64,000 nt of DNA from Alphaproteobacteria bacterium (lineage in GTDB: Bacteria > Pseudomonadota > Alphaproteobacteria > UBA7887), in NCBI GenBank assembly GCA_965200095.1, contig OZ241350.1, forward strand, positions 1,912,215-1,976,214, written 5' to 3'. A program made the translations under genes and the position numbers. The notes below the pieces were generated by a model, which saw only the letters and a program-made list of their open reading frames with translations, was not told where the DNA came from and made no database searches. Shown here piece after piece: positions 45,662 to 58,207 of the stretch. Every line of letters starts with the position of its first letter. Position 1 is the first letter of the stretch.

Positions 45662-45689
45662 CCCCCCCCCCCCCCCCCCCCCCCCCCCC
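45662..45689. repeat. poly-C homopolymer (~28 nt) 26 nt upstream of the adhesin-A start codon
   Basis: Read directly: t + 28 c + g. Confidence 0.9.
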
Positions 45690-45715: not shown

Positions 45716-48700
45716 ATGATCCGCCGGGCCTGCGGGCTGCTGGCGCTGGCCTTCCTCGCCGCCGCGGCTCTTGCCGTCTTCCCTCGCACGGCAGAGGCGG
45801 TGTGCACCGTTAACGCCGCCACGTCGACCGAGGTAAATTTCAGAGCCTCGGCGATAACCTCCAGTTCAATCACGTTTTCGTGGAATCGGCCGTCATGCGC
45901 CAGCGGCGCCGTCTCATGGCGTGTTACCGGGGCCACCCTGACCGGCGGCGGCAACTGCTGCAGTCATGTGTATGCAGACGGTGGGACCATTTCCTCTTCG
46001 ACCGCGTCCGCGCTTGGATGGACGAAGACCGGGCTGAACGCCAATACGACCTACCACTGGCGGGTGCGTATCGACCAGCCGATCACCGAGCGATCCGACT
46101 TCTTCCCCCATAATGCCCGACTGAGCGTCACGACCAAACAGGCGTCGCCGGGGACTCCGGGCGGCGTGACGGTGACGCCGGGGGTAGGCCAGCTCGCCGT
46201 CTCCTGGACCGCCGCAACCAATGCCGGCGGCTACAAGGTGCAGTGGAAATCCGGTTCGCAAGCTTACGACGCCGCGCGTCAGGCGACAGTCGGCAGCGGA
46301 ACGAGCCACACCATTACGAGCCTGACCGCGGGGACCGTATACACCGTGCGGGTCATCGCGACGCGGACCAACGCCGACGACGGACCCGCCTCCGCAGAGC
46401 GGACCGGAACGCCCAAATACTCGCCGCCGGGGACTCCGGGCGGCGTGACAGTGACGCCGGGGGTAGGCCAGCTCGCCGTCTCCTGGACCGCCGCAACCAA
46501 TGCCGGCGGCTACAAGGTGCAGTGGAAGTCCGGCGCGCAGGCTTACGACGCCGCGCGTCAGGCGACAGTCGGCAGCGGAACGAGCCACACCATTACGAGC
46601 CTGACCGCGGGGACCGCATACACCGTGCGGGTCATCGCTACGCGGACCAACGCCGACGACGGACCCGCCTCCGCAGAGCGAACCGGAACCCCGAAGGCTG
46701 CGCCGCCGGGGACTCCGGGCGGCGTGACGGTGACGCCGGGGGTGGGCCAGCTCGCCGTCTCCTGGACCGCCGCAACCAATGCCGGCGGCTACAAGGTGCA
46801 GTGGAAATCCGGTTCGCAAGCATACGACGCCGCGCGTCAGGCGACAGTCGGGAGCGGAACGAGCCATGCTATTACCGGCCTCACCGCAGGGACCGAATAC
46901 ACCGTCCGGGTCATCGCGACGCGGAGCAATGCCGACGACGGACCCGCCTCCGCAGAGCGAACCGGAACCCCGAAGGCTGCGCCGCCGGGGACTCCGGGCG
47001 GCGTAACGGTGACGCCGGGAGTGGGCCAGCTTGCCGTCTCCTGGACCGCCGCGGCCAATGCCGACGGCTACAAGGTGCAGTGGAAATCCGGCTCGCAGAC
47101 TTACGACGCCGCGCGTCAGGCGACAGTCGGCAGCGGAACGAGCCACGCCATTACCGGCTTGAGCGCGGGGACCGAATACGCCGTGCGGGTCGTCGCGACG
47201 CGAAGCAATGCCGACGACGGACCCGCCTCCGCAGAGCGAACCGGAACGCCGAGGGCCGCGCCGTCGGGGGCGCCGGGCGGTGTGACGGTGACGCCGGGGG
47301 CGGGCCGGCTCGCCGTCTCCTGGACCGCCGTGACCGGCGCCGACGGCTACAAGGTGCAGTGGAAATCCGGCGCGCAGACTTACGATGCCGCGCGTCAGGC
47401 GACAGTCGGCGGCAGCACGAGCCACACTATCACCGGCCTCGCCGCGGGAACCGAATACACCGTGCGGGTCATCGCGACGCGAACCGACGCCGACGACGGA
47501 CCCGCCTCCGCAGAGCGAACCGGAACGCCCAAACAATCGCCGCCGGGGGCGCCGGGCGACGTAACGGTGACGCCGGAGGTGGGCCGGCTCGCCGTCTCCT
47601 GGACCGCCGCGACCGATGCCGACGGCTACAAGGTGCAGTGGAAATCCGGCTCGCAGACTTACGACGCCGCGCGTCAGGCGACGGTCGGCAGCGGAACGAG
47701 CCATGCCATTACCGGTCTGACCGCGGGGACCGAATACACCGTGCGGGTCATCGCGACGCGCAGCAACGCCGACGACGGACCCGCCTCCACAGAGCAAACC
47801 GGAACGCCGACGACAGGCAGGATCGATCTGTCGGCGCCGACTCTCGCCGTGACGGCGGGCGGCGCCGGGGAGACCTACACGGTGGTTCTGGGCGCAGCGC
47901 CGGATGGCGACGTCACCGTCGCAATAGCGAGCGACAACGGCGATGTGACGGCGACTCCCGACAGCCTCTCCTTCACGGCGTCGGACTGGAGCGCGCCGCA
48001 GACGGTGACGTTAACTGCGGCGGCGGACGATGACGGCTACGCCGATATGGCGTCGCTGACGCATACGGCGTCGGGCGGCGGTTACGACGGGGTGACGGGG
48101 ACGCTGCCCGTGGCGGTGACGGGCGACAGCAAGGTGAGGGTGGGCGGCGCGGGCGAGACGGTCTACCGGATCCGCGGTCGGACGGTGACGGTGGCGGTGA
48201 TGCCCGGCACGCCGGCGGGCATTGAGATCGACCTTGCGGACCTGCCCGAAGCGCCTTCGGGCGAGGCTCTGACGCTGACCTTCGCGCCTGTGGCGTCTCC
48301 GGCGGCGAGCGACGCTTTCGCCTTCGGGCCGCCGGAGTCGCGGACCGTTGTGGATGTGACGGTGACGGCGGGGCGCGTTTCGTCTCCGGGTCTGCGTCTG
48401 TGCCTTCCGGTTGCGGATGCGGCGCGGGATGCGGCGCGGGGTCGTCCGTTGCTGTTGCTGCGTTACGACGGCAGCGCCTGGGGCGCGGTCGCCGGGTCTG
48501 CGGCGAGCGCGGACGGGTCGCTTGTGTGCGCCGATGGCGTGTCGTCGTTTTCGCCGTTTGCGGTTGGGTATGCGGACACGGCGCCGTCGTTTGCGGCGGA
48601 TGCGGCCATCGCGGCGCTGGCGTTCACGGCGGGCGAGGCCATTGAGCCTGTGACCTTGCCTGCGGCGACGGGGGGCGACGGGACGTTCTACGAGCTGGGT

Positions 48701-50269
48701 CCGCGGCCATTGGCGCTGCCGCCGGGTCTGGATATCGACGATGCGACGCGGGTTCTTTCGGGGACGCCGACGGAGGCGTTCGCGCAGCGTCGCTACACAT
48801 GGACGGCGACGGACATCGACGGGGAGAGCGATACGCTGTCGTTCACGATGGAGGTGCTGCCGGCGCTTGCGGCGGCGCGGGAGCGTTTGCGGGCGGTGAA
48901 CGAGTCGGTTCTGCCGGAGTTGTCGCGGGCGATGTGGGGGAGCGTCATCGATGCGCTGACGGGGCGCCTTGAGAGCGCGGGTCTTTCGGTCGGCGACGGC
49001 GCGGGCGTCGCGGCGTCGGGTCTTGCGGGGGCTTCGGAGTTCCTGCGGTCGAACGATGGCGCGCCTGGGGCGGGTTCTGGTTCGTGGCGGGAGTTGCTGG
49101 CGGGCGAATCCTTCGTGCTGGGCGTGGGTTCGGAAGCGGGCGGCGGCGGCGGCGGTTCGCCGGTAATGGTCTGGGGTTCGGGGGACTGGCGCAAACTGTC
49201 GCTGGACGATGCGGTTCTGGACTGGTCCGGGGAGTTGCTCTCGGCGCATGCGGGGGTGGATGCGCGGCTTGGCGGGAGTGTTCGCGGCGGCGTTGCGGCG
49301 TCATGGTTCGAGAGTGAGATCGACTACACGGATCGCAGCGGCGAGGCGGCGGTTTCGGGCGTTCACGAGAGCCGGCTGCCGGCGGTGCATCCCTGGGCGG
49401 GGTGGTTCGGCTCGGACGGCTCGCGTCTGTGGGGGGTGCTGGGCTATGGCGAGGGCGAGGTCGAGATAGCGGATGCGGACCTTGCGGAGCGTTTCGGGGT
49501 CCAGAAGAGCGACAGCGCGTTTCTGGCGGCGGCGGCGGGGGGTTCGGTTCCGGTTGCGTCGTCCGGCGTGTTTGCGCTTGCGCTGAAGGGTTCGGGGGAG
49601 GCGACGCGCTATTCGGTGGAGGACAACGGCGCGGCGATTGCGGCGGTGTCTGTGGACACGCAGCGGTTGCGGCTGTCTGCGACGGGCAGCCGGCGCTGGG
49701 TTCTGGCGGACGGCGGGACGCTTACGCCGTCGCTGGAGGCGGGGGCGCGCTGGGACGGCGGCGACGGGGAGACGGGCGCAGGCGTGGAGTTGGGGGGCGG
49801 CGTGGAGTGGACGCTTCCGTCGCATGGCCTGGCGGTTGCGGCGCGGGGCCGGACGCTGGCGGCCCATGCGGGCGCTGCGGAGGAATGGGGCGTGTCGGGT
49901 TCGGCGCGGCTTTCGCCGCCCGGCGGGCGCGGTCTGTCTCTGGCGCTGTCGCCGCGCTGGGGGGCTTCGGACAGCGGCCTGTCGCGTCTGTGGGACGAGG
50001 GCGTTGCGGGGCGCGGGTCTCCGGTCGGCGGAAGCGACGCGGGCGCGGCGGGTCTGGAGGCGGAGTTGGGCTACGGGTTCCGCGAGGGGGCCGGTCTGCT
50101 GACGCCGTCTGCGGGGTTCGGCTACGGGGACGGCGGCGCGCGGCGCTGGCTGGTGGGAACGCGGTTCGAGCTCGGCCCGGCGCTTGCGGTCTCGGTGGCG
50201 ACCGAACGCCGCGACGGCGCCGCCGACGCCGGACACGCCCTCCGCATCGACCTGCGCATGAACTGGTAG
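45716..50269 (+). CDS. giant secreted repeat protein A (1517 aa): signal peptide, 7 FN3-like domains, Calx-beta/cadherin-like and He_PIG-like domains, C-terminal autotransporter-like beta-barrel
   Basis: Signal peptide MIRRACGLLALAFLAAAALAVFPRTAEA. FN3-like units of ~93 aa ending YTVRVIATR. Calx-like segment VTVAIASDNGDVTATPDSLSFTASDW. Helical linker LPALAAARERLRAVNESVLPEL. C-terminus LRIDLRMNW shows an alternating hydrophobic pattern and a terminal Trp. Confidence 0.8.
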   Translation: MIRRACGLLALAFLAAAALAVFPRTAEAVCTVNAATSTEVNFRASAITSSSITFSWNRPSCASGAVSWRVTGATLTGGGNCCSHVYADGGTISSSTASALGWTKTGLNANTTYHWRVRIDQPITERSDFFPHNARLSVTTKQASPGTPGGVTVTPGVGQLAVSWTAATNAGGYKVQWKSGSQAYDAARQATVGSGTSHTITSLTAGTVYTVRVIATRTNADDGPASAERTGTPKYSPPGTPGGVTVTPGVGQLAVSWTAATNAGGYKVQWKSGAQAYDAARQATVGSGTSHTITSLTAGTAYTVRVIATRTNADDGPASAERTGTPKAAPPGTPGGVTVTPGVGQLAVSWTAATNAGGYKVQWKSGSQAYDAARQATVGSGTSHAITGLTAGTEYTVRVIATRSNADDGPASAERTGTPKAAPPGTPGGVTVTPGVGQLAVSWTAAANADGYKVQWKSGSQTYDAARQATVGSGTSHAITGLSAGTEYAVRVVATRSNADDGPASAERTGTPRAAPSGAPGGVTVTPGAGRLAVSWTAVTGADGYKVQWKSGAQTYDAARQATVGGSTSHTITGLAAGTEYTVRVIATRTDADDGPASAERTGTPKQSPPGAPGDVTVTPEVGRLAVSWTAATDADGYKVQWKSGSQTYDAARQATVGSGTSHAITGLTAGTEYTVRVIATRSNADDGPASTEQTGTPTTGRIDLSAPTLAVTAGGAGETYTVVLGAAPDGDVTVAIASDNGDVTATPDSLSFTASDWSAPQTVTLTAAADDDGYADMASLTHTASGGGYDGVTGTLPVAVTGDSKVRVGGAGETVYRIRGRTVTVAVMPGTPAGIEIDLADLPEAPSGEALTLTFAPVASPAASDAFAFGPPESRTVVDVTVTAGRVSSPGLRLCLPVADAARDAARGRPLLLLRYDGSAWGAVAGSAASADGSLVCADGVSSFSPFAVGYADTAPSFAADAAIAALAFTAGEAIEPVTLPAATGGDGTFYELGPRPLALPPGLDIDDATRVLSGTPTEAFAQRRYTWTATDIDGESDTLSFTMEVLPALAAARERLRAVNESVLPELSRAMWGSVIDALTGRLESAGLSVGDGAGVAASGLAGASEFLRSNDGAPGAGSGSWRELLAGESFVLGVGSEAGGGGGGSPVMVWGSGDWRKLSLDDAVLDWSGELLSAHAGVDARLGGSVRGGVAASWFESEIDYTDRSGEAAVSGVHESRLPAVHPWAGWFGSDGSRLWGVLGYGEGEVEIADADLAERFGVQKSDSAFLAAAAGGSVPVASSGVFALALKGSGEATRYSVEDNGAAIAAVSVDTQRLRLSATGSRRWVLADGGTLTPSLEAGARWDGGDGETGAGVELGGGVEWTLPSHGLAVAARGRTLAAHAGAAEEWGVSGSARLSPPGGRGLSLALSPRWGASDSGLSRLWDEGVAGRGSPVGGSDAGAAGLEAELGYGFREGAGLLTPSAGFGYGDGGARRWLVGTRFELGPALAVSVATERRDGAADAGHALRIDLRMNW
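46141..47820 (+). repeat. six near-perfect 279-bp tandem repeats (one FN3-like domain each) inside adhesin A
   Basis: Repeat starts at about 46147, 46426, 46705, 46984, 47263 and 47542. Identity drifts only slightly between copies. Confidence 0.85.
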
Positions 50270-50344
50270 CGACCGGCGCGCGCGGCGACGGCGCGGGTGC
50301 GCGATACGACCGACGGGAAATCGAGGCGGCGCCGGGCGCGCGCC

Positions 50345-50614
50345 CTACACGACGCCGAACAGGCGCGCGGCCATCGCCAGAACGATCGCGAACATGAAGC
50401 CGAGCACCCACTTGACGGCCCACAATTCCGCCTTGACGGCGCCGATGTCACCCTTGAGTTCGGCTCTGAGTTCGGCGATGTCGCCCTTGGTGGCGACGCC
50501 CTCGCTCACCGCCTTGCGCACGGTTATGGCGATGGCCTTGGCTTGCGGCTCGGGCAGACCCGTGCGGGTCAAGGCCTCGGCCGCCTCCAGCGTGTCGAAC
50601 AACTCAGTGGACAT
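50345..50614 (-). CDS. DUF1640-like coiled-coil protein with C-terminal TM anchor, copy 1 (89 aa; two 11-mer repeats)
   Basis: MSTELFDTLEAAEALTRTGLPEPQAKAIAITVRKAV ... KGDIAELRAELKGDIGAVKAEL ... WVLGFMFAIVLAMAARLFGVV matches the DUF1640 N-terminus, 11-mer repeats and terminal TM. The start was trimmed from ORF 50345..50683. Confidence 0.6.
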   Translation of the reverse strand: MSTELFDTLEAAEALTRTGLPEPQAKAIAITVRKAVSEGVATKGDIAELRAELKGDIGAVKAELWAVKWVLGFMFAIVLAMAARLFGVV

Positions 50615-50644
50615 GCCGCGTCTTCTACGCCCGGTATCGGGGAC

Positions 50645-50673
50645 TGTCAAGCCGCCTGCGCTCACGGCGCAGG
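50645..50673 (-). promoter_or_regulatory. candidate promoter (-35 TTGACA) with an abutting inverted-repeat operator CCTGCGCTCACGGCGCAGG upstream of DUF1640 copy 1
   Basis: On the minus strand: palindrome, TTGACA, 17 nt, TAGAAG, 7 nt, ATG. There is no SD. Repeated upstream of copies 2 and 3. Confidence 0.4.
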
Positions 50674-50990
50674 GCAATCGCACTTGGGCGTCATTTTGGG
50701 TTGGGGTTTAGGGGTTTTGGTTGAGCGGATCGTGTCGAGGAGGAAGTTGTTGTCCCATCCGGCGCGCTTGAGTTTTCCTCGCATGGCGTCTTTTCCGGGT
50801 TCGATGCGCGCGACGTTCAGGGCCATGCGGCGCAGCAGTGCGAGGTTCTCCGGCCCATTCCCGGTGCGGTTGCGCTGCCGATCCTCGTTCATGGTCACGT
50901 CCAATACCCAATGCAACGAGTTCCCGATCGCCCAATGGCCGCGCACCGCGTGCCGGAAGCGCTCCGGGGAGAGTTCGGCGCCCATGATGT
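50662..50990 (-). pseudogene. ISAs1/IS4-like transposase C-terminal fragment
   Basis: HWAIGNSLHWVLDVTMNEDRQRNRTGNGPENLALLRRMALN matches the conserved DDE-transposase C-terminus. The upstream catalytic part is missing. Confidence 0.5.
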
Positions 50991-51387
50991 AGTAGCGCGT
51001 CTCGGTTGTCGTCCCGGTTCGGGTCTCGATGCGCCCGCGGCTGCCGTAGGTGTCTCGATGGCGCCGTCGGCCCGCATCCCCTGCGCCGGGCTGTCCGGGT
51101 AGAGTTTCGAGTCTCCTCTCACGGTCGCCCGTGCCCCCTGTTTCCATGATGGCGCTTGCGATGGCGACGCCGCTATCGGTCGGTCATGGAAATCGGGCGG
51201 CGGTTGCTTTCCGGCAGCGTCCGGGTTGCCGTAGCGAACGGCGTTGTCGATGCGTCTTGACATGCGGTCGAAATCGGGTTACCGGTGCGGGCCATAATTC
51301 ATGAAGGTGGGGGCGATGGATGTCGGTAATCTCTCGGCCGGAACGCGGCGGCGAACCGGACGCCGGTTTACGATGTCGCCCCTGAAT

Positions 51388-51405
51388 CCCCCCCCCCCCC
51401 CCCCC
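51388..51405. repeat. poly-C homopolymer (18 nt) inside the 5' end of the adhesin-B reading frame
   Basis: ccc + cccccccccc + ccccc, read directly. Confidence 0.9.
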
Positions 51406-51428
51406 GCGCCTTCGTCGCGGCGGCGTGG

Positions 51429-54400
51429 TTGGCTTTTCTGTTCGTCGCAGCGGCGCAGCCGGCCGTCGCGGCGGAGTGGATCCATAGCCCGTCTCCGGCG
51501 ATCCTGTATAAAAGCAGCCTGAATAACGCGCAAGTTTATTTGGCGCTGGATGGAAACTCGCCCCGTTTCAAAGTCACCAGCGATCTGAATACAAACAGAA
51601 GCACCTGGTTCGCCTTGTCGGGCGTCCCCAGCGGGGTCACTCTCTCGGTCAGCGCCGTTGTCGGTCAAACCTCGCCGCATCAGGGCGCCTTGTTGACGTT
51701 GAGCTATAGCGGCAATTTCACCAGCGACTGGGTCCTTACGATCACGGTCCCTTCGGCGGCCTTCTTCACAAGGGCGCGCCAGGTGGTCTACACGATCCCG
51801 GTGCAGACGGACAATACGAAAAGCCTGTGGACGGGGGCAGTATCGGGCCAGGCGACGGAAGCCGGGGGACAGGCGACGTTCCCGGTGCGGCTGCGGGCGG
51901 CGCCTTCGCAGGACGTAACCGTGACGGTAACGAGCCGGGATACGGGCGAGGGCTCGGTATCGCCGTCCACGCTCACCTTCAGCTCTTCGAATTGGCACAC
52001 GCCGCAGACTGTGACGGTGACCGGCGTGGACGATAACGTGGACGACGGCACTCAAAACTGGAACGTCCGCCTCGATCCGTCGAGCGCCGATACGACCTAT
52101 AACGGCCTGACGAACGTGGACGTGGCGGTAACCACCACGGACAATGACGCCCTACCGACGGCGACGCTGTCGCTGAGCCAGTCTTCGATTTCCGAGAACG
52201 GCGGTTCTGCGACAGTGACCGCGGCGCTCTCGCATCCGTCGAGTGGGGCGACGGCGCTGACGGTGGCGGCTTCGCCGGGTTCGGGGACGGATTTCACACA
52301 GACGGGAACGACGCTGAACATCGCTGCGGGGGCGACGAGCAGCACCGGAACGGTGACCATCGCAGCAACCAACAATAGCGTCGACGCGCCGGACAAGAGC
52401 GTGACGGTCTCGGCGACGGCGAGCGGGGCCAGCAACGTCGCGAACCCGTCGTCGGTGACGCTGACGCTGACGGACGACGAGGCGGCGCCGACGGCGACGC
52501 TGGCGTTGTCGAACAATTCGATTCCGGAGAACGGCGGGACATCGACGGTGAGCGCGACGCTGTCGCACGCCTCCAGCGCGTCTTCGACGATCACCGTTTC
52601 GACGGGGACGGGGTTCACCCTGGGTTCGGCGACGACGTTGAATATCGCGGCGGGAGCGACGAGCAGCAGCGGGACGGTGACGCTCACGGCGGATAACGAC
52701 AACGTGCATTCGGGAGACCGGTCGGTCACGGTGACGGGTTCGATGGCGAACACCCAGGGCGCGGGTTCCGTGACGGGGGCTTCGTTGACGATCGAGGAAG
52801 ACGAGGCGTTGCCGACGGCGACGCTGGCGTTGTCGCGTTCGAGCATCGACGAGAGCGGGGCGGACGGCGGTTCGACGGTGACCGCCGGCCTGAGCGGCGC
52901 GTCGAGCGAAGCGACGGTGCTGACGGTGTCGACGTCTCCGGGCGCCGACACGGTCGCAGGCGACTTCACGCAGTCGGGAACGGTGCTGACCATTGCGGCG
53001 GGGGAGACGTCCAGCACCGGCGCGGTGACGATCGCGGCCGTGGACAACGATGCCGACACGCCGAACAAGAGCGTGACGGTCTCGGCGACGGCGGCCGGAG
53101 GCAACGGCGTCGCGGATCCGTCCCCCCTGACGCTGACAGTGACGGACGATGAGGGGCCGCCGACGGTGACGCTGTCGCTGTCGCCGCCGTCGATCGACGA
53201 GAACGGGGGCGTGACGCGGGTGTCGGCGACGCTCTCGCGCCCGTCGGCCGTGGAGACGACGGTAACGGTGTCGGCGTCCCCGGGCGCTGACGCGGTTGCA
53301 GGCGACTTCGCCCTGAGTTCGAACAAGACGCTGACCATCGCCGCGGGAGCGACGACCGGCGCCGGAACGGTGACGATCGCGGCCGTGGACAATGATGTCG
53401 ACGCGCCGGACAAGAGCGTGACGGTTTCGGGCGCGGCGTCGAACGCTGTGGCCGAGGCTGCCGGGCAGACCGTGGCCGTGACCGGAGCGACGCTGACGGT
53501 GACGGACGACGACGAGACGGGGATGCTCATCGCGCCGTCGTCGCTCGTCGCGGAAGCGGGCGGCGCCGGGACGGAGTACACGGTCGTACTCGCCAGCGAG
53601 CCCGTCGGCGACGTGACGGTGGCGATAGCGAGCGACTCGGCGGAAGTGACGGTCAGCCCCGACAGTCTTGTCTTCACGGCGTCGGACTGGAGCGCGCCGC
53701 AGACGGTGACGTTAACCGCAGCGGCGGACGATGACGGTTACGCCGATGCGGCGTCGCTGACGCATACGGCGTCGGGCGGCGGTTACGACGGGGTGACGGG
53801 GACGCTGCCCGTGGCGGTGACGGGCGACAGCAAGGTGAGGGTGGGCGGCGCGGGCGAGACGGTTTACCGGATCCGCGGTCGGACGGTGACGGTGGCGGTG
53901 ATGCCCGGCACGCCGGCGGGCATTGAGATCGACCTTGCGGACCTGCCCGAAGCGCCTTCGGGCGAGGCTCTGACGCTGACCTTCGCGCCTGTGGCGTCTC
54001 CGGCGGCGAGCGACGCTTTCGCCTTCGGGCCGCCGGAGTCGCGGACCGTTGTGGATGTGACGGTGACGGCGGGGCGCGTTTCGTCTCCGGGTCTGCGTCT
54101 GTGCCTTCCGGTTGCGGATGCGGCGCGGGATGCGGCGCGGGGTCGTCCGTTGCTGTTGCTGCGTTACAACGGCGACGCCTGGGGCGCGGTCGCCGGGTCT
54201 GCGGCGAGCGCGGACGGGTCGCTTGTGTGCGCCGATGGCGTGTCGTCGTTTTCGCCGTTTGCGGTTGGGTATGCGGACACGGCGCCGTCGTTTGCGGCGG
54301 ATGCGGCCATCGCGGCGCTGGCGTTCACGGCGGGCGAGGCCATTGAGCCTGTGACCCTGCCTGCGGCGACGGGGGGCGACTGGACGATCCACGAGCTGGG

Positions 54401-55970
54401 TCCCCGGCCATTGGCGCTGCCGCCGGGTCTGGGTTTCGACCGTGACACGCGGGTTCTTTCGGGGACTCCGACGGAGGCGTTCGCGCAGCGTCGCTACACA
54501 TGGACGGCGACGGACATCGATGGGGAGAGCGATACGCTGTCGTTCACGATGGAGGTGCTGCCGGCGCTTGCGGCGGCGCGGGAGCGTTTGCGGGCGGTGA
54601 ACGAGTCGGTTCTGCCGGAGTTGTCGCGGGCGATGTGGGGGAGCGTCATCGATGCGCTGACGGGGCGCCTTGAGAGCGCGGGTCTTTCGGTCGGCGACGG
54701 CGCGGGCGTCGCGGCGTCGGGTCTTGCGGGGGCTTCGGAGTTCCTGCGGTCGAACGATGGCGCGCCTGGGGCGGGTTCTGGTTCGTGGCGGGAGTTGCTG
54801 GCGGGCGAATCCTTCGTGCTGGGCGTGGGTTCGGAAGCGGGCGGCGGCGGCGGCGGTTCGCCGGTAATGGTCTGGGGTTCGGGGGACTGGCGCAAACTGT
54901 CGCTGGACGATGCGGTTCTGGACTGGTCCGGGGAGTTGCTCTCGGCGCATGCGGGGGTGGATGCGCGGCTTGGCGGGAGTGTTCGCGGCGGCGTTGCGGC
55001 GTCATGGTTCGAGAGTGAGATCGACTACACGGATCGCAGCGGCGAGGCGGCGGTTTCGGGCGTTCACGAGAGCCGGCTGCCGGCGGTGCATCCCTGGGCG
55101 GGGTGGTTCGGCTCGGACGGCTCGCGTCTGTGGGGGGTGCTGGGCTATGGCGAGGGCGAGGTCGAGATAGCGGATGCGGACCTTGCGGAGCGTTTCGGGG
55201 TCCAGAAGAGCGACAGCGCGTTTCTGGCGGCGGCGGCGGGGGGTTCGGTTCCGGTTGCGTCGTCCGGCGTGTTTGCGCTTGCGCTGAAGGGTTCGGGGGA
55301 GGCGACGCGCTATTCGGTGGAGGACAACGGCGCGGCGATTGCGGCGGTGTCTGTGGACACGCAGCGGTTGCGGCTGTCTGCGACGGGCAGCCGGCGCTGG
55401 GTTCTGGCGGACGGCGGGACGCTTACGCCGTCGCTGGAGGCGGGGGCGCGCTGGGACGGCGGCGACGGGGAGACGGGCGCAGGCGTGGAGTTGGGGGGCG
55501 GCGTGGAGTGGACGCTTCCGTCGCATGGCCTGGCGGTTGCGGCGCGGGGCCGGACGCTGGCGGCCCATGCGGGCGCTGCGGAGGAATGGGGCGTGTCGGG
55601 TTCGGCGCGGCTTTCGCCGCCCGGCGGGCGCGGTCTGTCTCTGGCGCTGTCGCCGCGCTGGGGGGCTTCGGACAGCGGCCTGTCGCGTCTGTGGGACGAG
55701 GGCGTTGCGGGGCGCGGGTCTCCGGTCGGCGGAAGCGACGCGGGCGCGGCGGGTCTGGAGGCGGAGTTGGGCTACGGGTTCCGCGAGGGGGCCGGTCTGC
55801 TGACGCCGTCTGCGGGGTTCGGCTACGGGGACGGCGGCGCGCGGCGCTGGCTGGTGGGAACGCGGTTCGACCTCGGCCCGGCGCTTGCGGTCTCGGTGGC
55901 GACCGAACGCCGCGACGGCGCCGCCGACGCCGGACACGCCCTCCGCATCGACCTGCGCATGAACTGGTAG
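51429..55970 (+). CDS. giant secreted repeat protein B (about 1513 aa from TTG): 5 Calx-beta-like domains plus the shared Calx/He_PIG/linker/beta-barrel module; apparently phase-OFF
   Basis: Calx-beta-like units [25 protein letters not shown]...NIAAGATSSTGTVTIAA...DKSVTVSATA. The last ~900 aa are near-identical to protein A and end LRIDLRMNW. The in-frame ORF begins only at TTG 51429, in the middle of a signal-peptide h-region. The ATG at 51373 (MSPLN-polyP) is out of frame by one C. Confidence 0.75.
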   Translation: MAFLFVAAAQPAVAAEWIHSPSPAILYKSSLNNAQVYLALDGNSPRFKVTSDLNTNRSTWFALSGVPSGVTLSVSAVVGQTSPHQGALLTLSYSGNFTSDWVLTITVPSAAFFTRARQVVYTIPVQTDNTKSLWTGAVSGQATEAGGQATFPVRLRAAPSQDVTVTVTSRDTGEGSVSPSTLTFSSSNWHTPQTVTVTGVDDNVDDGTQNWNVRLDPSSADTTYNGLTNVDVAVTTTDNDALPTATLSLSQSSISENGGSATVTAALSHPSSGATALTVAASPGSGTDFTQTGTTLNIAAGATSSTGTVTIAATNNSVDAPDKSVTVSATASGASNVANPSSVTLTLTDDEAAPTATLALSNNSIPENGGTSTVSATLSHASSASSTITVSTGTGFTLGSATTLNIAAGATSSSGTVTLTADNDNVHSGDRSVTVTGSMANTQGAGSVTGASLTIEEDEALPTATLALSRSSIDESGADGGSTVTAGLSGASSEATVLTVSTSPGADTVAGDFTQSGTVLTIAAGETSSTGAVTIAAVDNDADTPNKSVTVSATAAGGNGVADPSPLTLTVTDDEGPPTVTLSLSPPSIDENGGVTRVSATLSRPSAVETTVTVSASPGADAVAGDFALSSNKTLTIAAGATTGAGTVTIAAVDNDVDAPDKSVTVSGAASNAVAEAAGQTVAVTGATLTVTDDDETGMLIAPSSLVAEAGGAGTEYTVVLASEPVGDVTVAIASDSAEVTVSPDSLVFTASDWSAPQTVTLTAAADDDGYADAASLTHTASGGGYDGVTGTLPVAVTGDSKVRVGGAGETVYRIRGRTVTVAVMPGTPAGIEIDLADLPEAPSGEALTLTFAPVASPAASDAFAFGPPESRTVVDVTVTAGRVSSPGLRLCLPVADAARDAARGRPLLLLRYNGDAWGAVAGSAASADGSLVCADGVSSFSPFAVGYADTAPSFAADAAIAALAFTAGEAIEPVTLPAATGGDWTIHELGPRPLALPPGLGFDRDTRVLSGTPTEAFAQRRYTWTATDIDGESDTLSFTMEVLPALAAARERLRAVNESVLPELSRAMWGSVIDALTGRLESAGLSVGDGAGVAASGLAGASEFLRSNDGAPGAGSGSWRELLAGESFVLGVGSEAGGGGGGSPVMVWGSGDWRKLSLDDAVLDWSGELLSAHAGVDARLGGSVRGGVAASWFESEIDYTDRSGEAAVSGVHESRLPAVHPWAGWFGSDGSRLWGVLGYGEGEVEIADADLAERFGVQKSDSAFLAAAAGGSVPVASSGVFALALKGSGEATRYSVEDNGAAIAAVSVDTQRLRLSATGSRRWVLADGGTLTPSLEAGARWDGGDGETGAGVELGGGVEWTLPSHGLAVAARGRTLAAHAGAAEEWGVSGSARLSPPGGRGLSLALSPRWGASDSGLSRLWDEGVAGRGSPVGGSDAGAAGLEAELGYGFREGAGLLTPSAGFGYGDGGARRWLVGTRFDLGPALAVSVATERRDGAADAGHALRIDLRMNW

Positions 55971-56390
55971 CGGCCGACCCGCAAGGCGGGTGTGCGATAC
56001 GACCGACGGGAAATCGATGCGGCGCCGGGCGCGCGCCCTACACGACGCCGAACAGGCGCGCGGCCATCGCCAGAACGATCGCGAACATGAAGCCGAGCAC
56101 CCACTTGACGGCCCACAATTCCGCCTTGACGGCGCCGATGTCACCCTTGAGTTCGGCCCTGAGTTCGGCGATGTCGCCCTTGAGTTCGGCTCTGAGTTCG
56201 CTGATGTCGCCCTTGGTGGCGACGCCCTCGCTCACCGCCTTGCGCACGGTTATGGCGATGGCCTTGGCTTGCGGCTCGGGCAGACCCGTGCGGGTCAAGG
56301 CCTCGGCCGCCTCCAGCGTGTCGAACAACTCAGTGGACATGCCGCGTCTTCTACGCCCGGTATCGGGGACTGTCAAGCCGCCAGCAATTC
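53670..56390. repeat. segmental duplication copy 2
   Basis: See 47970-50690. Confidence 0.85.
56038..56340 (-). CDS. DUF1640-like protein, copy 2 (100 aa; three 11-mer repeats)
   Basis: Same N- and C-termini as copy 1. Has KGDISELRAELKGDIAELRAELKGDIGAVKAEL. Confidence 0.6.
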   Translation of the reverse strand: MSTELFDTLEAAEALTRTGLPEPQAKAIAITVRKAVSEGVATKGDISELRAELKGDIAELRAELKGDIGAVKAELWAVKWVLGFMFAIVLAMAARLFGVV

Positions 56391-56465
56391 TCATTTTGGC
56401 CCATAGCGATGCGGCGGACCTGTCGCTCCCAGGAAGGCGCGTCCATCGCCATAATGAGAATCGCC
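56383..56465. mobile_element. 83-bp MITE-like insertion flanked by an 11-bp target-site duplication GTCAAGCCGCC
   Basis: AGCAATTCTCATTTTGGCC...CCATAATGAGAATCGCC has inverted termini. It splits the promoter/operator sequence that is intact upstream of copy 1. The direct repeat GTCAAGCCGCC is at 56372-56382 and 56467-56477. Confidence 0.65.
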
Positions 56466-56569
56466 GGTCAAGCCGCCTGCGCTCCCGGCGCAGGGCAATC
56501 GACCCGCAAGGCGGCGGCGCGGTGTGCGATACGACCGACGGGAAATCGAGGCGGCGCCGGGCGCGCGCC

Positions 56570-56980
56570 CTACACGACGCCGAACAGACGCGCGGCCATC
56601 GCCAGAATGATCGCGAACATGAAGCCGAGCACCCACTTGACGGCCCACAATTCCGCCTTGACGGCGCCGACCTCACCCCTGAGTTCGCCGATGTCGCCCT
56701 TGAGTTCGCCGATGTCGCCCTTGAGTTCGGTTCTGAGTTCGCCGATGTCGCCCTTGAGTTCGGTTCTGAGCTCGCCGATGTCACCCTTGAGTTCGGCCCT
56801 GAGCTCGCCGATATCGCCCTTGAGTTCGGTTCTGAGCTCGCCGACATCGCTCTTCGTGGCAACGCCCTCGCTCACCGCCTTGCGCACGGTTATGGCGATG
56901 GCCTTGGCTTGCGGCTCGGGCAGACCGGCGCGGGTCAAGGCCTCGGCCGCCTCCATGGTGTCGAACGACGTAGCGGACAT
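56570..56980 (-). CDS. DUF1640-like protein, copy 3 (136 aa; about seven 11-mer and 8-mer repeats)
   Basis: MSATSFDTMEAAEALTRAGLPEPQAKAIAITVRKAV, then GELRTELKGDI repeated with 33-bp DNA periodicity, then the same TM tail. Confidence 0.6.
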   Translation of the reverse strand: MSATSFDTMEAAEALTRAGLPEPQAKAIAITVRKAVSEGVATKSDVGELRTELKGDIGELRAELKGDIGELRTELKGDIGELRTELKGDIGELKGDIGELRGEVGAVKAELWAVKWVLGFMFAIILAMAARLFGVV

Positions 56981-57388
56981 GCCGCTTCGTCTACCCCCGG
57001 CATCGGAGACTGTCAAGCCGCTTGCGCTCCCGGCGGTTCCCGTCGCGGCGACCGGCGCCGCTCGCCGCATCCGGCAGGCGTCGGCGCGGCAGGCGGGCGC
57101 CCCGGCCGAACCGCCGGATTTTTTCACGCGGTCCTTCGCAGAACGAGCATATCGGAGCAACGACAACCCGTATCGAACCGGGGCGCCCGCTCATCCTGTC
57201 GTCGTCTCGCGACACCGCCGGAAGTCCGCTCGAACAGGCGAGCGCCGGGCCGTGACCGGCCCCCCCCCGAAAAATCCGGGCGTTATGCAGGAGTTCCGAC
57301 GCGCAATTCGCTCCCGGCTTGCGCCGGCGGCGAACGCCGCTATGCTGCGCGTTCTCCGATGCGGAAGCGACCCGCAAAAGGCATCCCC

Positions 57389-58207
57389 ATGACGACGCGC
57401 GCGCGCCGGCCGGCCGCCGGAATCCTTTGTCTGGCGGCGTTTAGCGCAGTTTCCGTCCACCACGCCGCGGCGGTCGAGCTGCGTCCGCACCGCGCCCTTT
57501 ACGACCTCGGCCTCGCGGCCGCCCGCGACGGGTCGTCGATCACGGCGTTGCGCGGCGAAATGGCGCTCGAATGGGCCGACGCCTGCGAAGGCTGGACAGT
57601 GTCGCAGAATATCCGCATGGACATCGCGAACCGCAGCGGCGCGTCCTTCCAGAACGTCATCTCCTTTTCGAGCTACGAGACCAAATCGGGCGACCGCTTT
57701 CGCTTCAGCATGAAGTGGGGCGCGGCGGGAGACCGCGTCGAGGAATATGTCGGATACGCCGAACCCGGACGCGCGGTTTTCACCGTGCCCGACGGCGAGT
57801 CGATGCCCCTCCCCGAGGGGACGATGTTCCCCACCGATCACATGTTTCTCCTCGTCGATGCGGCGGCGGCCGGCAGGTCGCGCCTGACGCGGACGGTGTT
57901 CGGCGGCACCGGCCCGGACAGCCTGAACGAGGTCACCGCGTTCATCGGCGCCGAGGTCCCCTCCGGAACGCCGCTCGCGACGCGCGGCGACGAGGGCGCG
58001 GTATTGCGCGAGGTTGCGGAACTGCGTTCCTGGCCGGTGTCGCTGGCTTATTTCCCGTTCGAATCGAACGCGCCGGAGCCGGATTTCGAAGCGATCTTCC
58101 GCCTTGTCGAAAACGGCGTTGCGGCGTCGGTAATCCTCGACTATGGCGAGTTCGCCATGAATGCGGAGCTCACGGAGATCGAGTTCTTCCCGCCTCCGGC
58201 GTGCTGA
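57389..58207 (+). CDS. periplasmic protein, possibly DUF1849/EipB-like (272 aa)
   Basis: Signal peptide MTTRARRPAAGILCLAAFSAVSVHHAAA. Assigned by recalled similarity to alphaproteobacterial envelope-integrity proteins. Confidence 0.4.
   Translation: MTTRARRPAAGILCLAAFSAVSVHHAAAVELRPHRALYDLGLAAARDGSSITALRGEMALEWADACEGWTVSQNIRMDIANRSGASFQNVISFSSYETKSGDRFRFSMKWGAAGDRVEEYVGYAEPGRAVFTVPDGESMPLPEGTMFPTDHMFLLVDAAAAGRSRLTRTVFGGTGPDSLNEVTAFIGAEVPSGTPLATRGDEGAVLREVAELRSWPVSLAYFPFESNAPEPDFEAIFRLVENGVAASVILDYGEFAMNAELTEIEFFPPPAC

What the first reader, a model, noticed from the sequence alone, without database searches (positions are those of the whole stretch)
50345..57166. Three DUF1640-like coiled-coil/TM genes, one convergent downstream of each giant gene plus one extra, differing only in the number of 11-residue repeats
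Copies at 50345-50614, 56038-56340 and 56570-56980 share identical N-terminal (FDTLEAAEALTR...PEPQAKAIAITVRKAV) and C-terminal TM segments. They carry 2, 3 and about 7 copies of an ELRAELKGDIG-type 11-mer (33-bp DNA period). Two are part of the 2.7-kb duplication unit with the adhesin C-terminus, which implies co-inheritance and possibly a functional link with it. Each is preceded by the same promoter-plus-palindrome (CCTGCGCTCNCGGCGCAGG abutting TTGACA) and has essentially no 5' UTR, so it may be leaderless.
Basis: partly seen in the sequence, partly recalled or inferred. Interest (0 to 1): 0.6.

Follow-up and report, generated by a model that had tools for sequence, protein, structure and literature searches.

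The report
Variable-length membrane-anchored coiled-coil paralogs
Three small genes encode copies of a known membrane-anchored coiled-coil protein (DUF1640/CCDC90 family, resembling Borrelia Bdr proteins) that differ mainly in the number of 11-residue stalk repeats. A recent duplication, not a conserved partnership, explains why they sit beside two giant adhesin genes.

Summary
The three minus-strand genes are real: 50345-50614 (89 aa), 56038-56340 (100 aa) and 56570-56980 (136 aa). Each has a CCDC90/DUF1640-type head, a VATK[GS]D neck motif, a coiled-coil stalk and a C-terminal transmembrane anchor. The stalks hold 22, 33 and 69 residues, built from 33-bp (11-residue) and, in the longest copy, 21-bp (7-residue) units. 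Only the longest copy passes Pfam's PF07798 threshold.

Orthologues in related assemblies, and many distant homologues, also differ by whole repeat units. This length variation is therefore a property of the family. Its closest precedent is the Borrelia Bdr family.

The proposed link to the adhesins is not supported. One copy was carried along in a 2.8-kb duplication (97.4% identical) that ends at a transposase remnant. Outside this narrow clade, none of about 45 loci has a homologue of the autotransporter, and no neighbouring gene recurs.

The leaderless-promoter idea gains comparative support: a -35 element, 16-17 nt, a -10-like element, 7 nt, then ATG, in four diverged lineages. The palindrome claim holds for one copy only.

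Verdict: a new member of a known family of unknown bacterial function. Interest is modest.

The parts
50345..50614 (-). Copy 1: DUF1640/CCDC90-like gene, 89 aa. Head residues 1-39, neck VATKGD, 22-residue stalk, C-terminal transmembrane anchor.
   Evidence: ORF and translation. PF07798 E=2e-4, matching profile positions 1-35. PHROG 17872 full-length match, E=1e-13.
50414..50479 (-). Copy 1 stalk: two 33-bp units (IAELRAELKGD, IGAVKAELWAV).
   Evidence: Unit parse.
50615..50650 (-). Copy 1 core promoter-like element: TTGACA (50645-50650), 17 nt, TAGAAG (50622-50627), 7 nt, then ATG. No Shine-Dalgarno sequence.
   Evidence: Sequence. Conserved in all 8 copies of the clade. The same geometry occurs in relatives at 41-47% identity. 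Not detected by the strict scan.
50655..50673 (.). Palindrome CCTGCGCTCACGGCGCAGG (7-bp stem, 5-nt loop), 4 nt upstream of the copy 1 -35 element.
   Evidence: Pattern search: 2 sites in the window against 0.06 expected by chance.
56038..56340 (-). Copy 2: DUF1640/CCDC90-like gene, 100 aa, 33-residue stalk.
   Evidence: (PF07798 E=5.9e-6).
56107..56205 (-). Copy 2 stalk: three 33-bp units.
   Evidence: Tandem Repeats Finder period 33, score 138. Unit parse.
56341..56376 (-). Copy 2 core promoter-like element, identical to that of copy 1.
   Evidence: Alignment.
56383..56466 (.). 84-bp hairpin element with terminal inverted repeats. It is flanked by the 11-bp direct repeat GTCAAGCCGCC (56372-56382 and 56467-56477) and separates the copy 2 promoter from the palindrome.
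   Evidence: Present in every internal spacer of the tandem arrays in relatives and absent at copy 1.
56476..56494 (.). Second palindrome, CCTGCGCTCCCGGCGCAGG, 76 nt downstream of the copy 3 stop codon.
56570..56980 (-). Copy 3: DUF1640/CCDC90-like gene, 136 aa. The 69-residue stalk holds four 11-mers, two 7-mers and a terminal 11-mer.
   Evidence: PF07798 36.6 bits, above the 33.5 gathering score. Unit parse. 1804 homologues.
56639..56845 (-). Copy 3 stalk repeat array, made of 33-bp and 21-bp units.
   Evidence: Tandem Repeats Finder period 33 (score 246) and period 21 (score 102). Unit parse.
56981..57016 (-). Copy 3 core promoter-like element: TTGACA, 17 nt, TAGACG, 7 nt, ATG. Only a degenerate half-palindrome lies upstream.
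47855..50656 (.). Duplication unit A: the 3' 2.4 kb of giant gene 1, plus copy 1 and its promoter.
   Evidence: blastn gives 97.4% identity to 53556-56382.
53556..56382 (.). Duplication unit B: the 3' part of giant gene 2, plus copy 2 and its promoter.
45716..50269 (+). Giant gene 1 (context, not a functional part): 1517 aa with seven fn3 domains and an autotransporter C-terminus shared with giant gene 2.
   Evidence: Pfam. The C-terminal 814 aa are 96% identical to giant gene 2.
51429..55970 (+). Giant gene 2 (context): 1513 aa with Calx-beta and LapA domains and an autotransporter beta-domain.
   Evidence: Pfam. PF03797 scores 29.3 bits, above the 26-bit gathering score, on the last 449 aa.
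50684..51147 (-). Transposase (DDE_Tnp_1) remnant at the outer edge of duplication unit A.
   Evidence: Pfam PF01609, E=4e-5.

Best explanation
The three genes are paralogues of a small tail-anchored protein of the DUF1640/CCDC90 'head-neck-stalk-anchor' family.

Architecture (shown by sequence): a roughly 40-residue two-helix head, a VATK[GS]D neck, a coiled-coil stalk and a C-terminal transmembrane helix. The stalk's hydrophobic pattern (I..L...L...I) fits 11-residue and 7-residue coiled-coil repeats.

Inferred from the family: the proteins form trimers. The head and stalk face the cytoplasm. A shared head is held about 3.3, 4.9 and 10 nm from the inner membrane, where it binds a partner, as the MCUR1 head binds MCU.

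Origin of the length differences: in-frame gain and loss of 33-bp and 21-bp units by slippage or unequal recombination.

Origin of the gene copies: (i) tandem duplication of a cassette of about 530-640 bp holding the gene, its own promoter and a spacer; (ii) a 2.8-kb duplication, ending at a transposase remnant, that copied the 3' half of an autotransporter gene together with the adjacent DUF1640 gene.

Linkage to the adhesins is therefore local synteny plus hitch-hiking, not a functional coupling. Each gene is probably transcribed from its own promoter as a leaderless mRNA.
For: Family and architecture:
- PF07798 hits.
- Neck motif matches the published DUF1640 beta-layer consensus.
- Best solved-structure match is 6H9L, deposited with three chains, which carries ATKEDIEALRK 11-mers.
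- The AlphaFold2 model gives helices 8-17 and 22-37, a break at residues 38-42, and one long helix 43-96.

Repeat lability:
- Orthologues in three related assemblies are 125+111 aa and 143+100+111 aa, against 136+100+89 aa here.
- Close homologues of the copy 3 type are 110, 114, 118, 125, 132 and 136 aa.
- An unrelated head type shows lengths of 147/158/169 and 152/163/174/185 aa.

Tandem arrays elsewhere:
- L004 has 3 copies.
- L017 has six paralogues with near-identical heads and anchors, of 89, 89, 107, 118, 125 and 136 aa, plus a more divergent 114-aa copy.

Hitch-hiking:
- Duplication boundaries and the transposase remnant.
- Relatives have a single giant gene.
- Same-subfamily genes elsewhere have no giant neighbour.
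- There are no homologues of giant gene 2 in other loci. No neighbouring gene family recurs in 45 loci.
- Among 34 metagenome loci with at least 6 kb of flank, the seven largest (about 1160-1600 aa) of the nine neighbouring ORFs over 1000 aa were tested against Pfam. They gave TamB, FG-GAP/TPR, an ATPase, a helicase, a molybdopterin enzyme, or no hit.

Leaderless promoter:
- The geometry -35, 16-17 nt, -10-like, 7 nt, ATG, with no Shine-Dalgarno sequence, is conserved in this clade and in L004, L005 and L006.
Against: - No expression, topology or oligomer data exist.
- Copies 1 and 2 score below Pfam's gathering threshold.
- The AlphaFold2 monomer model is of low confidence (pLDDT 63).
- dN/dS among the paralogues is uninformative, with only 0-7 synonymous differences. 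Selection on each individual copy is therefore not shown.
- Several unrelated lineages place DUF1640 genes beside envelope genes: TonB_C, TamB, a secretin, and EipB plus an autotransporter. An envelope-related role is therefore not excluded.
- The -10 element is weak and fails the strict scan. AGAAGA could serve as a poor Shine-Dalgarno sequence.
- Whether the LKGD units are helical or form beta-layers is unresolved.
Confidence: 0.7

Rival explanations
1. One reading: the DUF1640 proteins are dedicated accessory or regulatory partners of the giant autotransporter adhesins, and are co-inherited with them for that reason.
For: In all four genomes of the clade, the array lies convergent to the 3' end of the giant gene. 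One copy was duplicated together with the autotransporter C-terminus. One distant homologue lies next to TamB, a factor in autotransporter assembly.
Against: The linkage is confined to genomes whose giant proteins are 93-97% identical, so it is ordinary synteny. In the same relative, another copy of the same subfamily sits between NIPSNAP and nitrile hydratase genes. A homologue 71% identical lies between a hydroxylase and an epimerase gene. No homologue of giant gene 2 occurs in about 95 other loci and no neighbour recurs. The genes are convergent with the adhesin genes, not co-transcribed. The predicted topology places the head in the cytoplasm.
Confidence: 0.06
2. The stalk and head face the periplasm, and the proteins act as envelope spacers of graded length, analogous to Lpp.
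For: Envelope genes lie nearby in several lineages: EipB-like and an autotransporter here, TonB_C with a TonB-dependent receptor, a secretin, and TamB. Graded lengths would suit a ruler.
Against: There is no signal peptide or N-terminal transmembrane segment, and the charged N-terminal part is 67-114 residues long. The flank on the N-terminal side of the transmembrane helix (K, E, K) is more positive than the C-terminal tail (R plus the terminal carboxylate), which favours a cytoplasmic N-terminus. The mitochondrial homologues face the matrix, according to the review cited. Envelope genes are common, and no neighbour recurs.
Confidence: 0.1
3. The differences in repeat number, or the extra copies, are assembly artefacts of collapsed or expanded repeats.
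For: The source is a metagenome assembly. The only other contig read that carries these genes matches the window in gene order and protein sequence, so it gives no independent check. A further 3.27-Mb record is only listed. The homopolymer tracts nearby vary in length in a way that could reflect read errors.
Against: The arrays are only 66-207 bp long and made of non-identical units, so single reads span them easily. Each copy has distinct flanks and diagnostic substitutions. Several independent assemblies show different but always in-frame unit numbers at orthologous genes. Family-wide lengths step by 11 residues.
Confidence: 0.03
4. Copy 1, and perhaps other copies, are functionally redundant by-products of duplication and are drifting neutrally. 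On this view the series of lengths has no adaptive meaning.
For: Copy 1 arose by a recent duplication at 97.4% identity next to a transposase remnant. dN/dS is not below 1 among the paralogues, although the counts are tiny. Repeat gain and loss is expected mechanically for 33-bp tandem units.
Against: All copies keep an intact reading frame, promoter, head and anchor. Arrays of several lengths recur in unrelated lineages (L004, L017).
Confidence: 0.25

Closest known systems
DUF1640 / CCDC90-like family (PF07798): head-neck-stalk-anchor membrane proteins. Examples are human MCUR1 and CCDC90B and PDB entry 6H9L, which I recall as the archaeal protein Kcr-0859 (Adlakha et al. 2019, Structure 27:464; Hartmann et al. 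2016, eLife, PMC4786415).
   Same: The N-terminal head matches profile positions 1-35. The neck motif VATKGD fits the consensus [aliphatic]-A-T-K-[polar]-[DE]. Both have a coiled-coil stalk and a C-terminal transmembrane anchor. The 11-mers align with the ATKEDIEALRK repeats of 6H9L.
   Different: These proteins are much shorter (89-136 aa against a 175-position profile and 359 aa for MCUR1). They have no N-terminal targeting sequence or second transmembrane segment. Their partner is unknown, since bacteria have no MCU. Here the family occurs as a tandem or dispersed series of paralogues that differ in stalk unit number.
Borrelia Bdr (Borrelia direct repeat) protein family
   Same: Both are multi-copy paralogous families of small proteins with a conserved N-terminus, a central array of 11-residue repeats whose number varies between paralogues and between strains, and a C-terminal hydrophobic anchor. 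bdrT has about 9 repeats in strain B31 and about 6 in an otherwise 99.4% identical orthologue (PMC3303823). [quoted passage not shown] A B. turcica Bdr protein carries ELKGDIxxVKN units and aligns with copy 3 at 41% identity over 79 aa. It scores 23.5 bits on PF07798.
   Different: The head sequence is different. No NCBIfam match other than weak unrelated ones at E<=1. Bdr genes are on Borrelia cp32 prophages and linear plasmids. The genes here are chromosomal, in a GC-rich, probably alphaproteobacterial genome.
Phage and plasmid DUF1640 proteins: PHROG 17872 and 9415; APSE phages of Hamiltonella, Sodalis phage phiSG1, Liberibacter phages SC1 and SC2; Arsenophonus, Sodalis and Methylocapsa plasmids
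   Same: The profile matches are full-length (E as low as 1.5e-16), with 33-47% identity by tblastn. All are small proteins of unknown function.
   Different: The phage copies lie in the early, replication and regulation regions, beside primase, DNA polymerase and anti-repressor genes. The window shows no prophage context, only a transposase remnant.

Membership tests
DUF1640 / CCDC90-like (PF07798) | Profile HMM score at or above Pfam's gathering threshold (33.5 bits) | tested here: met
   Copy 3 scores 36.6 bits. Copies 2 and 1 score 26.7 and 21.7 bits, below the threshold, with E-values of 5.9e-6 and 2.1e-4. In the 80 flanking codons compared, they show about 11 non-synonymous differences from copy 3.
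DUF1640 / CCDC90-like (PF07798) | CCDC90-type N-terminal head domain | tested here: met
   Residues 6-40 align to profile positions 1-35. The motif FDT..A...L...G....A.A is invariant among homologues.
DUF1640 / CCDC90-like (PF07798) | Beta-layer neck motif [aliphatic]-A-T-K-[polar]-[DE] at the start of the stalk | tested here: met
   VATKGD or VATKSD at residues 40-45. Consensus taken from PMC4786415. The AlphaFold2 model breaks the helix at residues 38-42 (low confidence).
DUF1640 / CCDC90-like (PF07798) | Coiled-coil stalk followed by a C-terminal transmembrane anchor | tested here: met
   The hydrophobic spacing of 3-4-4 and 3-4 fits 11-residue and 7-residue coiled-coil repeats. A hydrophobic stretch of about 20 residues, WVLGFMFAIVLAMAARLFGVV, lies at the C-terminus. 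Copy 3 aligns to profile positions 83-171 of 175.
DUF1640 / CCDC90-like (PF07798) | Homotrimer with the head projected from the membrane (matrix- or cytoplasm-facing) | not testable with these tools
   Only a monomer prediction was possible (pLDDT 63). The best solved-structure match, 6H9L, was deposited with three chains.
Borrelia Bdr family | Match to the curated Bdr family model (NCBIfam 'Bdr family repetitive protein') | tested here: not met
   The NCBIfam scan of all three proteins at E<=1 returned only weak, unrelated matches.
Borrelia Bdr family | Central 11-residue repeats whose number varies between paralogues and strains | tested here: met
   2, 3 and 7 units here. Orthologues are 100/111 aa and 125/136/143 aa. 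The Bdr precedent is in PMC3303823.
Borrelia Bdr family | KID/KIE tripeptide in the repeats (IPR003900) | tested here: inconclusive
   The repeats here read K-G-D-I, not KID or KIE. A B. turcica Bdr protein also reads ELKGDI. The definition comes from PMC4370689.
Borrelia Bdr family | Encoded on Borrelia plasmids or cp32 prophages; inner-membrane localisation | tested here: not met
   The context is chromosomal, and the organism is probably an alphaproteobacterium: an EipB-like gene is the neighbour, and the nearest reference-genome loci are alphaproteobacterial. Localisation cannot be tested.
Leaderless mRNA genes | Transcription starts at, or within a few nucleotides of, the start codon, with no Shine-Dalgarno sequence | not testable with these tools
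   The geometry -35, 16-17 nt, -10-like, 7 nt, ATG is conserved in four diverged lineages and lacks a Shine-Dalgarno sequence. This is consistent with a leaderless transcript, but no 5' end data exist. The copies in L017 have an AGGAGG Shine-Dalgarno sequence.

The most novel reading that the evidence does not exclude
Keeping several stalk lengths at once may be the selected trait. On this reading, the tandem arrays of DUF1640 paralogues form a set of molecular rulers. They present one head at discrete distances of about 3, 5 and 10 nm from the inner membrane. In-frame variation in repeat number (33-bp and 21-bp units) allows rapid retuning between strains. The arrays seen here, in L004 and in L017, and the Borrelia Bdr family, would then all be instances of one widespread but unrecognised system. 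That system might be tied to replicon or envelope-machine positioning, given the phage replication-region and envelope-gene neighbourhoods.
Probability: 0.12. Interest if true: 0.6.

Novelty: new member of a known kind. Interest (0 to 1): 0.3.

Why it matters
Bacterial DUF1640/CCDC90 proteins have no known function, although they are widespread (1804 homologues found here) and are the prokaryotic relatives of the mitochondrial scaffolds MCUR1 and CCDC90B. This locus offers a clean natural series: the same head and anchor with stalks of 22, 33 and 69 residues. It also ties together the chromosomal arrays in free-living bacteria, the phage and plasmid copies, and the long-unexplained Borrelia Bdr family. 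That could guide experiments on what stalk length does. It does not reveal a new adhesin accessory system.

Tried and rejected
1. Linkage to adhesins. I examined 11 contexts from protein look-ups, 3 loci from reference genomes and 80 metagenome loci. tblastn with giant gene 2, Pfam on seven of the nine large neighbouring ORFs over 1000 aa and all-against-all clustering of neighbours found no recurrent partner.
2. dN/dS on the head and anchor codons among 8 paralogues and orthologues was uninformative, with only 0-7 synonymous differences.
3. The AlphaFold2 monomer model of copy 2 had pLDDT 63. That is too low for a fold search, so none was run.
4. The strict sigma-70 scan found no promoter in 50200-57400. 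Promoter support therefore rests on comparative geometry only.
5. Rfam found nothing in the window.
6. The copy 3 to copy 2 spacer folds no better than shuffled sequences (z = 0.14). The 84-bp element occurs only at the orthologous spacers, so it is not a dispersed mobile element in the sequence held.
7. PADLOC gave only a weak coiled-coil match to PbeC (E=1.8e-4), which I judged non-specific.
8. The primary Bdr papers and Adlakha 2019 could not be read. Statements about them rest on reviews that cite them or on my own recollection, and are marked as such.
Full report
**Observation**

Three intact ORFs lie on the minus strand at 50345-50614 (copy 1, 89 aa), 56038-56340 (copy 2, 100 aa) and 56570-56980 (copy 3, 136 aa). 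Tandem Repeats Finder reports a 33-bp period in copy 2 (score 138) and copy 3 (score 246). Copy 3 also has a 21-bp period (score 102).

All three proteins parse in the same way: a head (residues 1-39), a neck VATK[GS]D, a stalk, and the anchor KWVLGFMFAI[VI]LAMAARLFGVV.
- Copy 1 stalk: IAELRAELKGD + IGAVKAELWAV, 22 residues.
- Copy 2 stalk: one more 11-mer, 33 residues.
- Copy 3 stalk: four 11-mers, two 7-mers (IGELKGD, IGELRGE) and the terminal 11-mer, 69 residues.

Copies 1 and 2 are almost identical outside the repeats. Copy 3 shows about 11 non-synonymous and 6 synonymous differences from them in the 80 flanking codons compared. "Identical" is thus an overstatement for copy 3.

**Family**

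Pfam PF07798 (CCDC90-like, formerly DUF1640) matches copy 3 at 36.6 bits, above the gathering score of 33.5. It matches copies 2 and 1 at 26.7 and 21.7 bits. The head aligns to profile positions 1-35 and the stalk plus anchor to positions 83-171.

Hartmann et al. 2016 (PMC4786415) give the beta-layer consensus [aliphatic]-A-T-K-[polar]-[DE]. They state that DUF1640 membrane proteins carry it at the start of their C-terminal stalk. VATKGD and VATKSD fit this consensus.

A profile built from the clade finds PDB entry 6H9L as its best solved relative (E=2e-4). That entry was deposited with three chains. Its ATKEDIEALRK 11-mers align with the ELKGDIxELRx units here. I recall 6H9L as the archaeal Kcr-0859 of Adlakha et al. 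2019, who defined the trimeric head-neck-stalk-anchor architecture. I could not open that paper. [quoted passage not shown]

The hydrophobic spacing in the stalk (I-3-L-4-L-4-I, and I-3-L-4-I) is that of 11-residue and 7-residue coiled-coil repeats. A low-confidence AlphaFold2 monomer model (pLDDT 63) gives two short helices, a break at residues 38-42, and one long helix through the anchor. I could not determine whether the LKGD units are helical or form further beta-layers.

**Repeat number varies across the family**

The homologue search returned 1804 proteins.
- Close relatives of copy 3 are 110, 114, 118, 125, 132 and 136 aa. Relatives of copies 1 and 2 are 89, 100 and 111 aa.
- At the syntenic locus, related assemblies carry 125+111 aa (L003) and 143+100+111 aa (L007 and L008). 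Their giant proteins are 93-97% identical to those in the window.
- A distant group with a different head shows 147/158/169 and 152/163/174/185 aa, which are exact steps of 11.
- L005 and L006 are orthologous single genes of 79 and 87 aa.

Tandem arrays also recur. L004 has three copies. L017 has six paralogues with near-identical heads and anchors, of 89, 89, 107, 118, 125 and 136 aa, plus a more divergent 114-aa copy.

**Closest precedent: Borrelia Bdr**

A tblastn search of plasmids hit a "Bdr family repetitive protein" of Borrelia turcica. Its sequence carries ELKGDIADVKN-type 11-mers and a C-terminal hydrophobic tail. It aligns with copy 3 at 41% identity over 79 aa and scores 23.5 bits on PF07798.

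Bdr proteins are a multi-copy family associated with the inner membrane, and their function is unknown (PMC10016077 and PMC4370689). Their repeat number differs between otherwise 99.4% identical orthologues (PMC3303823).

The window proteins gave no match to a Bdr model in the NCBIfam scan, and their head differs. They behave like Bdr proteins, but I do not file them as Bdr.

Full-length phage relatives also exist: PHROG 17872 and 9415, the APSE phages, Sodalis phage phiSG1 and Liberibacter phages SC1 and SC2. They lie in the early and replication regions of those phages.

**Link to the adhesins**

The giant genes are type Va autotransporters. PF03797 scores 29.3 bits on the last 449 aa of gene 2. 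Gene 1 has fn3 passenger domains and gene 2 has Calx-beta and LapA domains. They share their C-terminal 814 aa at 96% identity.

At the DNA level, 47855-50656 matches 53556-56382 at 97.4% identity. This unit includes copy 1 or copy 2 with its core promoter. The outer edge of the first unit lies next to a DDE transposase remnant. Relatives have a single giant gene. Copy 1 therefore arrived by hitch-hiking.

Beyond this clade the linkage disappears.
- A solitary copy of the same subfamily in the relative's own genome lies between NIPSNAP and nitrile hydratase genes.
- A homologue 71% identical lies between a hydroxylase and an epimerase gene.
- Other lineages show TonB_C and DUF4139, ABC2_membrane and a glycosyltransferase, ABC transporter and MFS genes, or a secretin cluster.
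- In 34 metagenome loci with at least 6 kb of flank, seven of the nine neighbouring ORFs over 1000 aa were tested against Pfam. They gave TamB, FG-GAP/TPR, an ATPase, a helicase, a molybdopterin enzyme, or no hit.
- No locus outside the clade holds a homologue of giant gene 2.
- Clustering all neighbours from 45 loci gives no family shared beyond small syntenic groups.

**Promoter, palindrome and leader**

All eight gene copies of the clade share GGCGGCTTGACA, 17 nt, TAGA[AC]G, 7 nt, then ATG. The strict scan rejects this element because the last position of the -10 hexamer is not T.

The same geometry, without a Shine-Dalgarno sequence, recurs in relatives at only 41-47% protein identity: TTGACG-16-TATCGT-7-ATG in L004, TTGCGT-16-TTAGCC-7-ATG in L005 and TTGCGC-16-ATAGCC-7-ATG in L006. 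The L017 genes instead have an AGGAGG Shine-Dalgarno sequence. A leaderless transcript is therefore a reasonable inference for this alphaproteobacterial group, but it is unproven.

The palindrome occurs only twice in the window. At copy 1 it lies 4 nt from the -35 element. At copy 2 it lies 95 bp further upstream, behind an 84-bp hairpin element flanked by 11-bp direct repeats. There it sits 76 nt past the copy 3 stop codon, so it could equally mark the end of the upstream cassette. Copy 3 has only half of it.

**Mechanism**

Shown: the architecture, the repeat structure, the duplication history and the lack of a conserved neighbour.

Inferred:
- Trimerisation, by family membership.
- A cytoplasmic head and stalk. 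The proteins have no signal peptide, the flank on the N-terminal side of the anchor is more positive than the C-terminal tail, and the mitochondrial homologues face the matrix.
- Stalk reaches of about 3.3, 4.9 and 10 nm, assuming about 0.148 nm per residue.
- A scaffold or tether role for the head.
- Slippage or unequal recombination as the source of unit changes.

The envelope-related neighbours seen in several lineages keep a periplasm-facing or envelope-related role open at low probability.

**Verdict**

The DUF1640 assignment is correct. The link to the adhesins is not supported. This is a new member of a known family, with a well-documented precedent in Borrelia Bdr. It is a useful natural series of stalk lengths but not a new kind of system.

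Noticed in passing
window 45662-45689 and 51388-51405; L003, L007 and L008 upstream of the giant gene: Long poly-C tracts lie just upstream of both autotransporter genes: C28 ends 26 nt before the gene 1 ATG, and C18 ends 23 nt before the gene 2 TTG start. An ATG at 51373 is out of frame at 18 C and would be in frame at 13, 16 or 19 C. With that start, the protein would gain a complete signal peptide. The orthologous tract is 12, 14 and 17 C in relatives. This could be slipped-strand phase or expression variation of the adhesins, or homopolymer errors in long-read assemblies.
   Followed up: partly
window 56383-56466: An 84-bp element with terminal inverted repeats (GCAATTCTCATT...AATGAGAATCGC) forms a long hairpin and is flanked by the 11-bp direct repeat GTCAAGCCGCC. 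It is present in every internal spacer of the tandem arrays in relatives and absent at copy 1, which looks like an empty or precisely deleted site. It was not found elsewhere in the sequence held.
   Followed up: partly
window 50684-51147 (minus strand): A C-terminal fragment of a DDE transposase (PF01609) lies at the junction between the copy 1 cassette and the region upstream of giant gene 2. It is the likely scar of the event that created the second giant gene.
   Followed up: partly
window 45716-50269 and 51429-55970; L003 10404-15317; L007 10936-15492: The passenger domains of the autotransporter are shuffled between strains. Here there is one gene with seven fn3 domains (279-bp DNA repeats at 46142-47836) and one with Calx-beta and LapA domains. 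L003 has a single chimera (gene 2 residues 1-586 joined to gene 1 residues 500-1517). L007 has only a gene 2-like version.
   Followed up: partly
L017 1-9718: Besides the DUF1640 paralogues, this locus holds two other families of small proteins with a transmembrane segment and coiled-coil repeats of varying number. One has an N-terminal transmembrane segment and FERKFDQ-type repeats (85, 85 and 89 aa). The other has ADIGAALRDQSQALRDQRQAS-type repeats (73-204 aa). The locus lies next to a secretin and pilus cluster.
   Followed up: no
L105 (phage APSE-2) 4001-4249; L106 (Liberibacter phage SC2) 3932-4309: Phage DUF1640 homologues lie in the early region, among DNA primase, DNA polymerase, anti-repressor and regulator genes. 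One Borrelia bdr allele likewise lies next to the cp32 replication locus. In APSE-2 the matching ORF is not annotated.
   Followed up: partly
window 55103-58207 (+) and other long ORFs listed: Many long spurious ORFs, up to 1034 aa, overlap the real genes in other frames. This is a consequence of the high G+C content, and ORF length alone is not evidence of a gene in this window.
   Followed up: no
window 57390-58207 (+): An EipB-like (PF08904) gene for a periplasmic protein is transcribed divergently from copy 3. It is conserved at this position in all relatives, and L003 has two copies.
   Followed up: no
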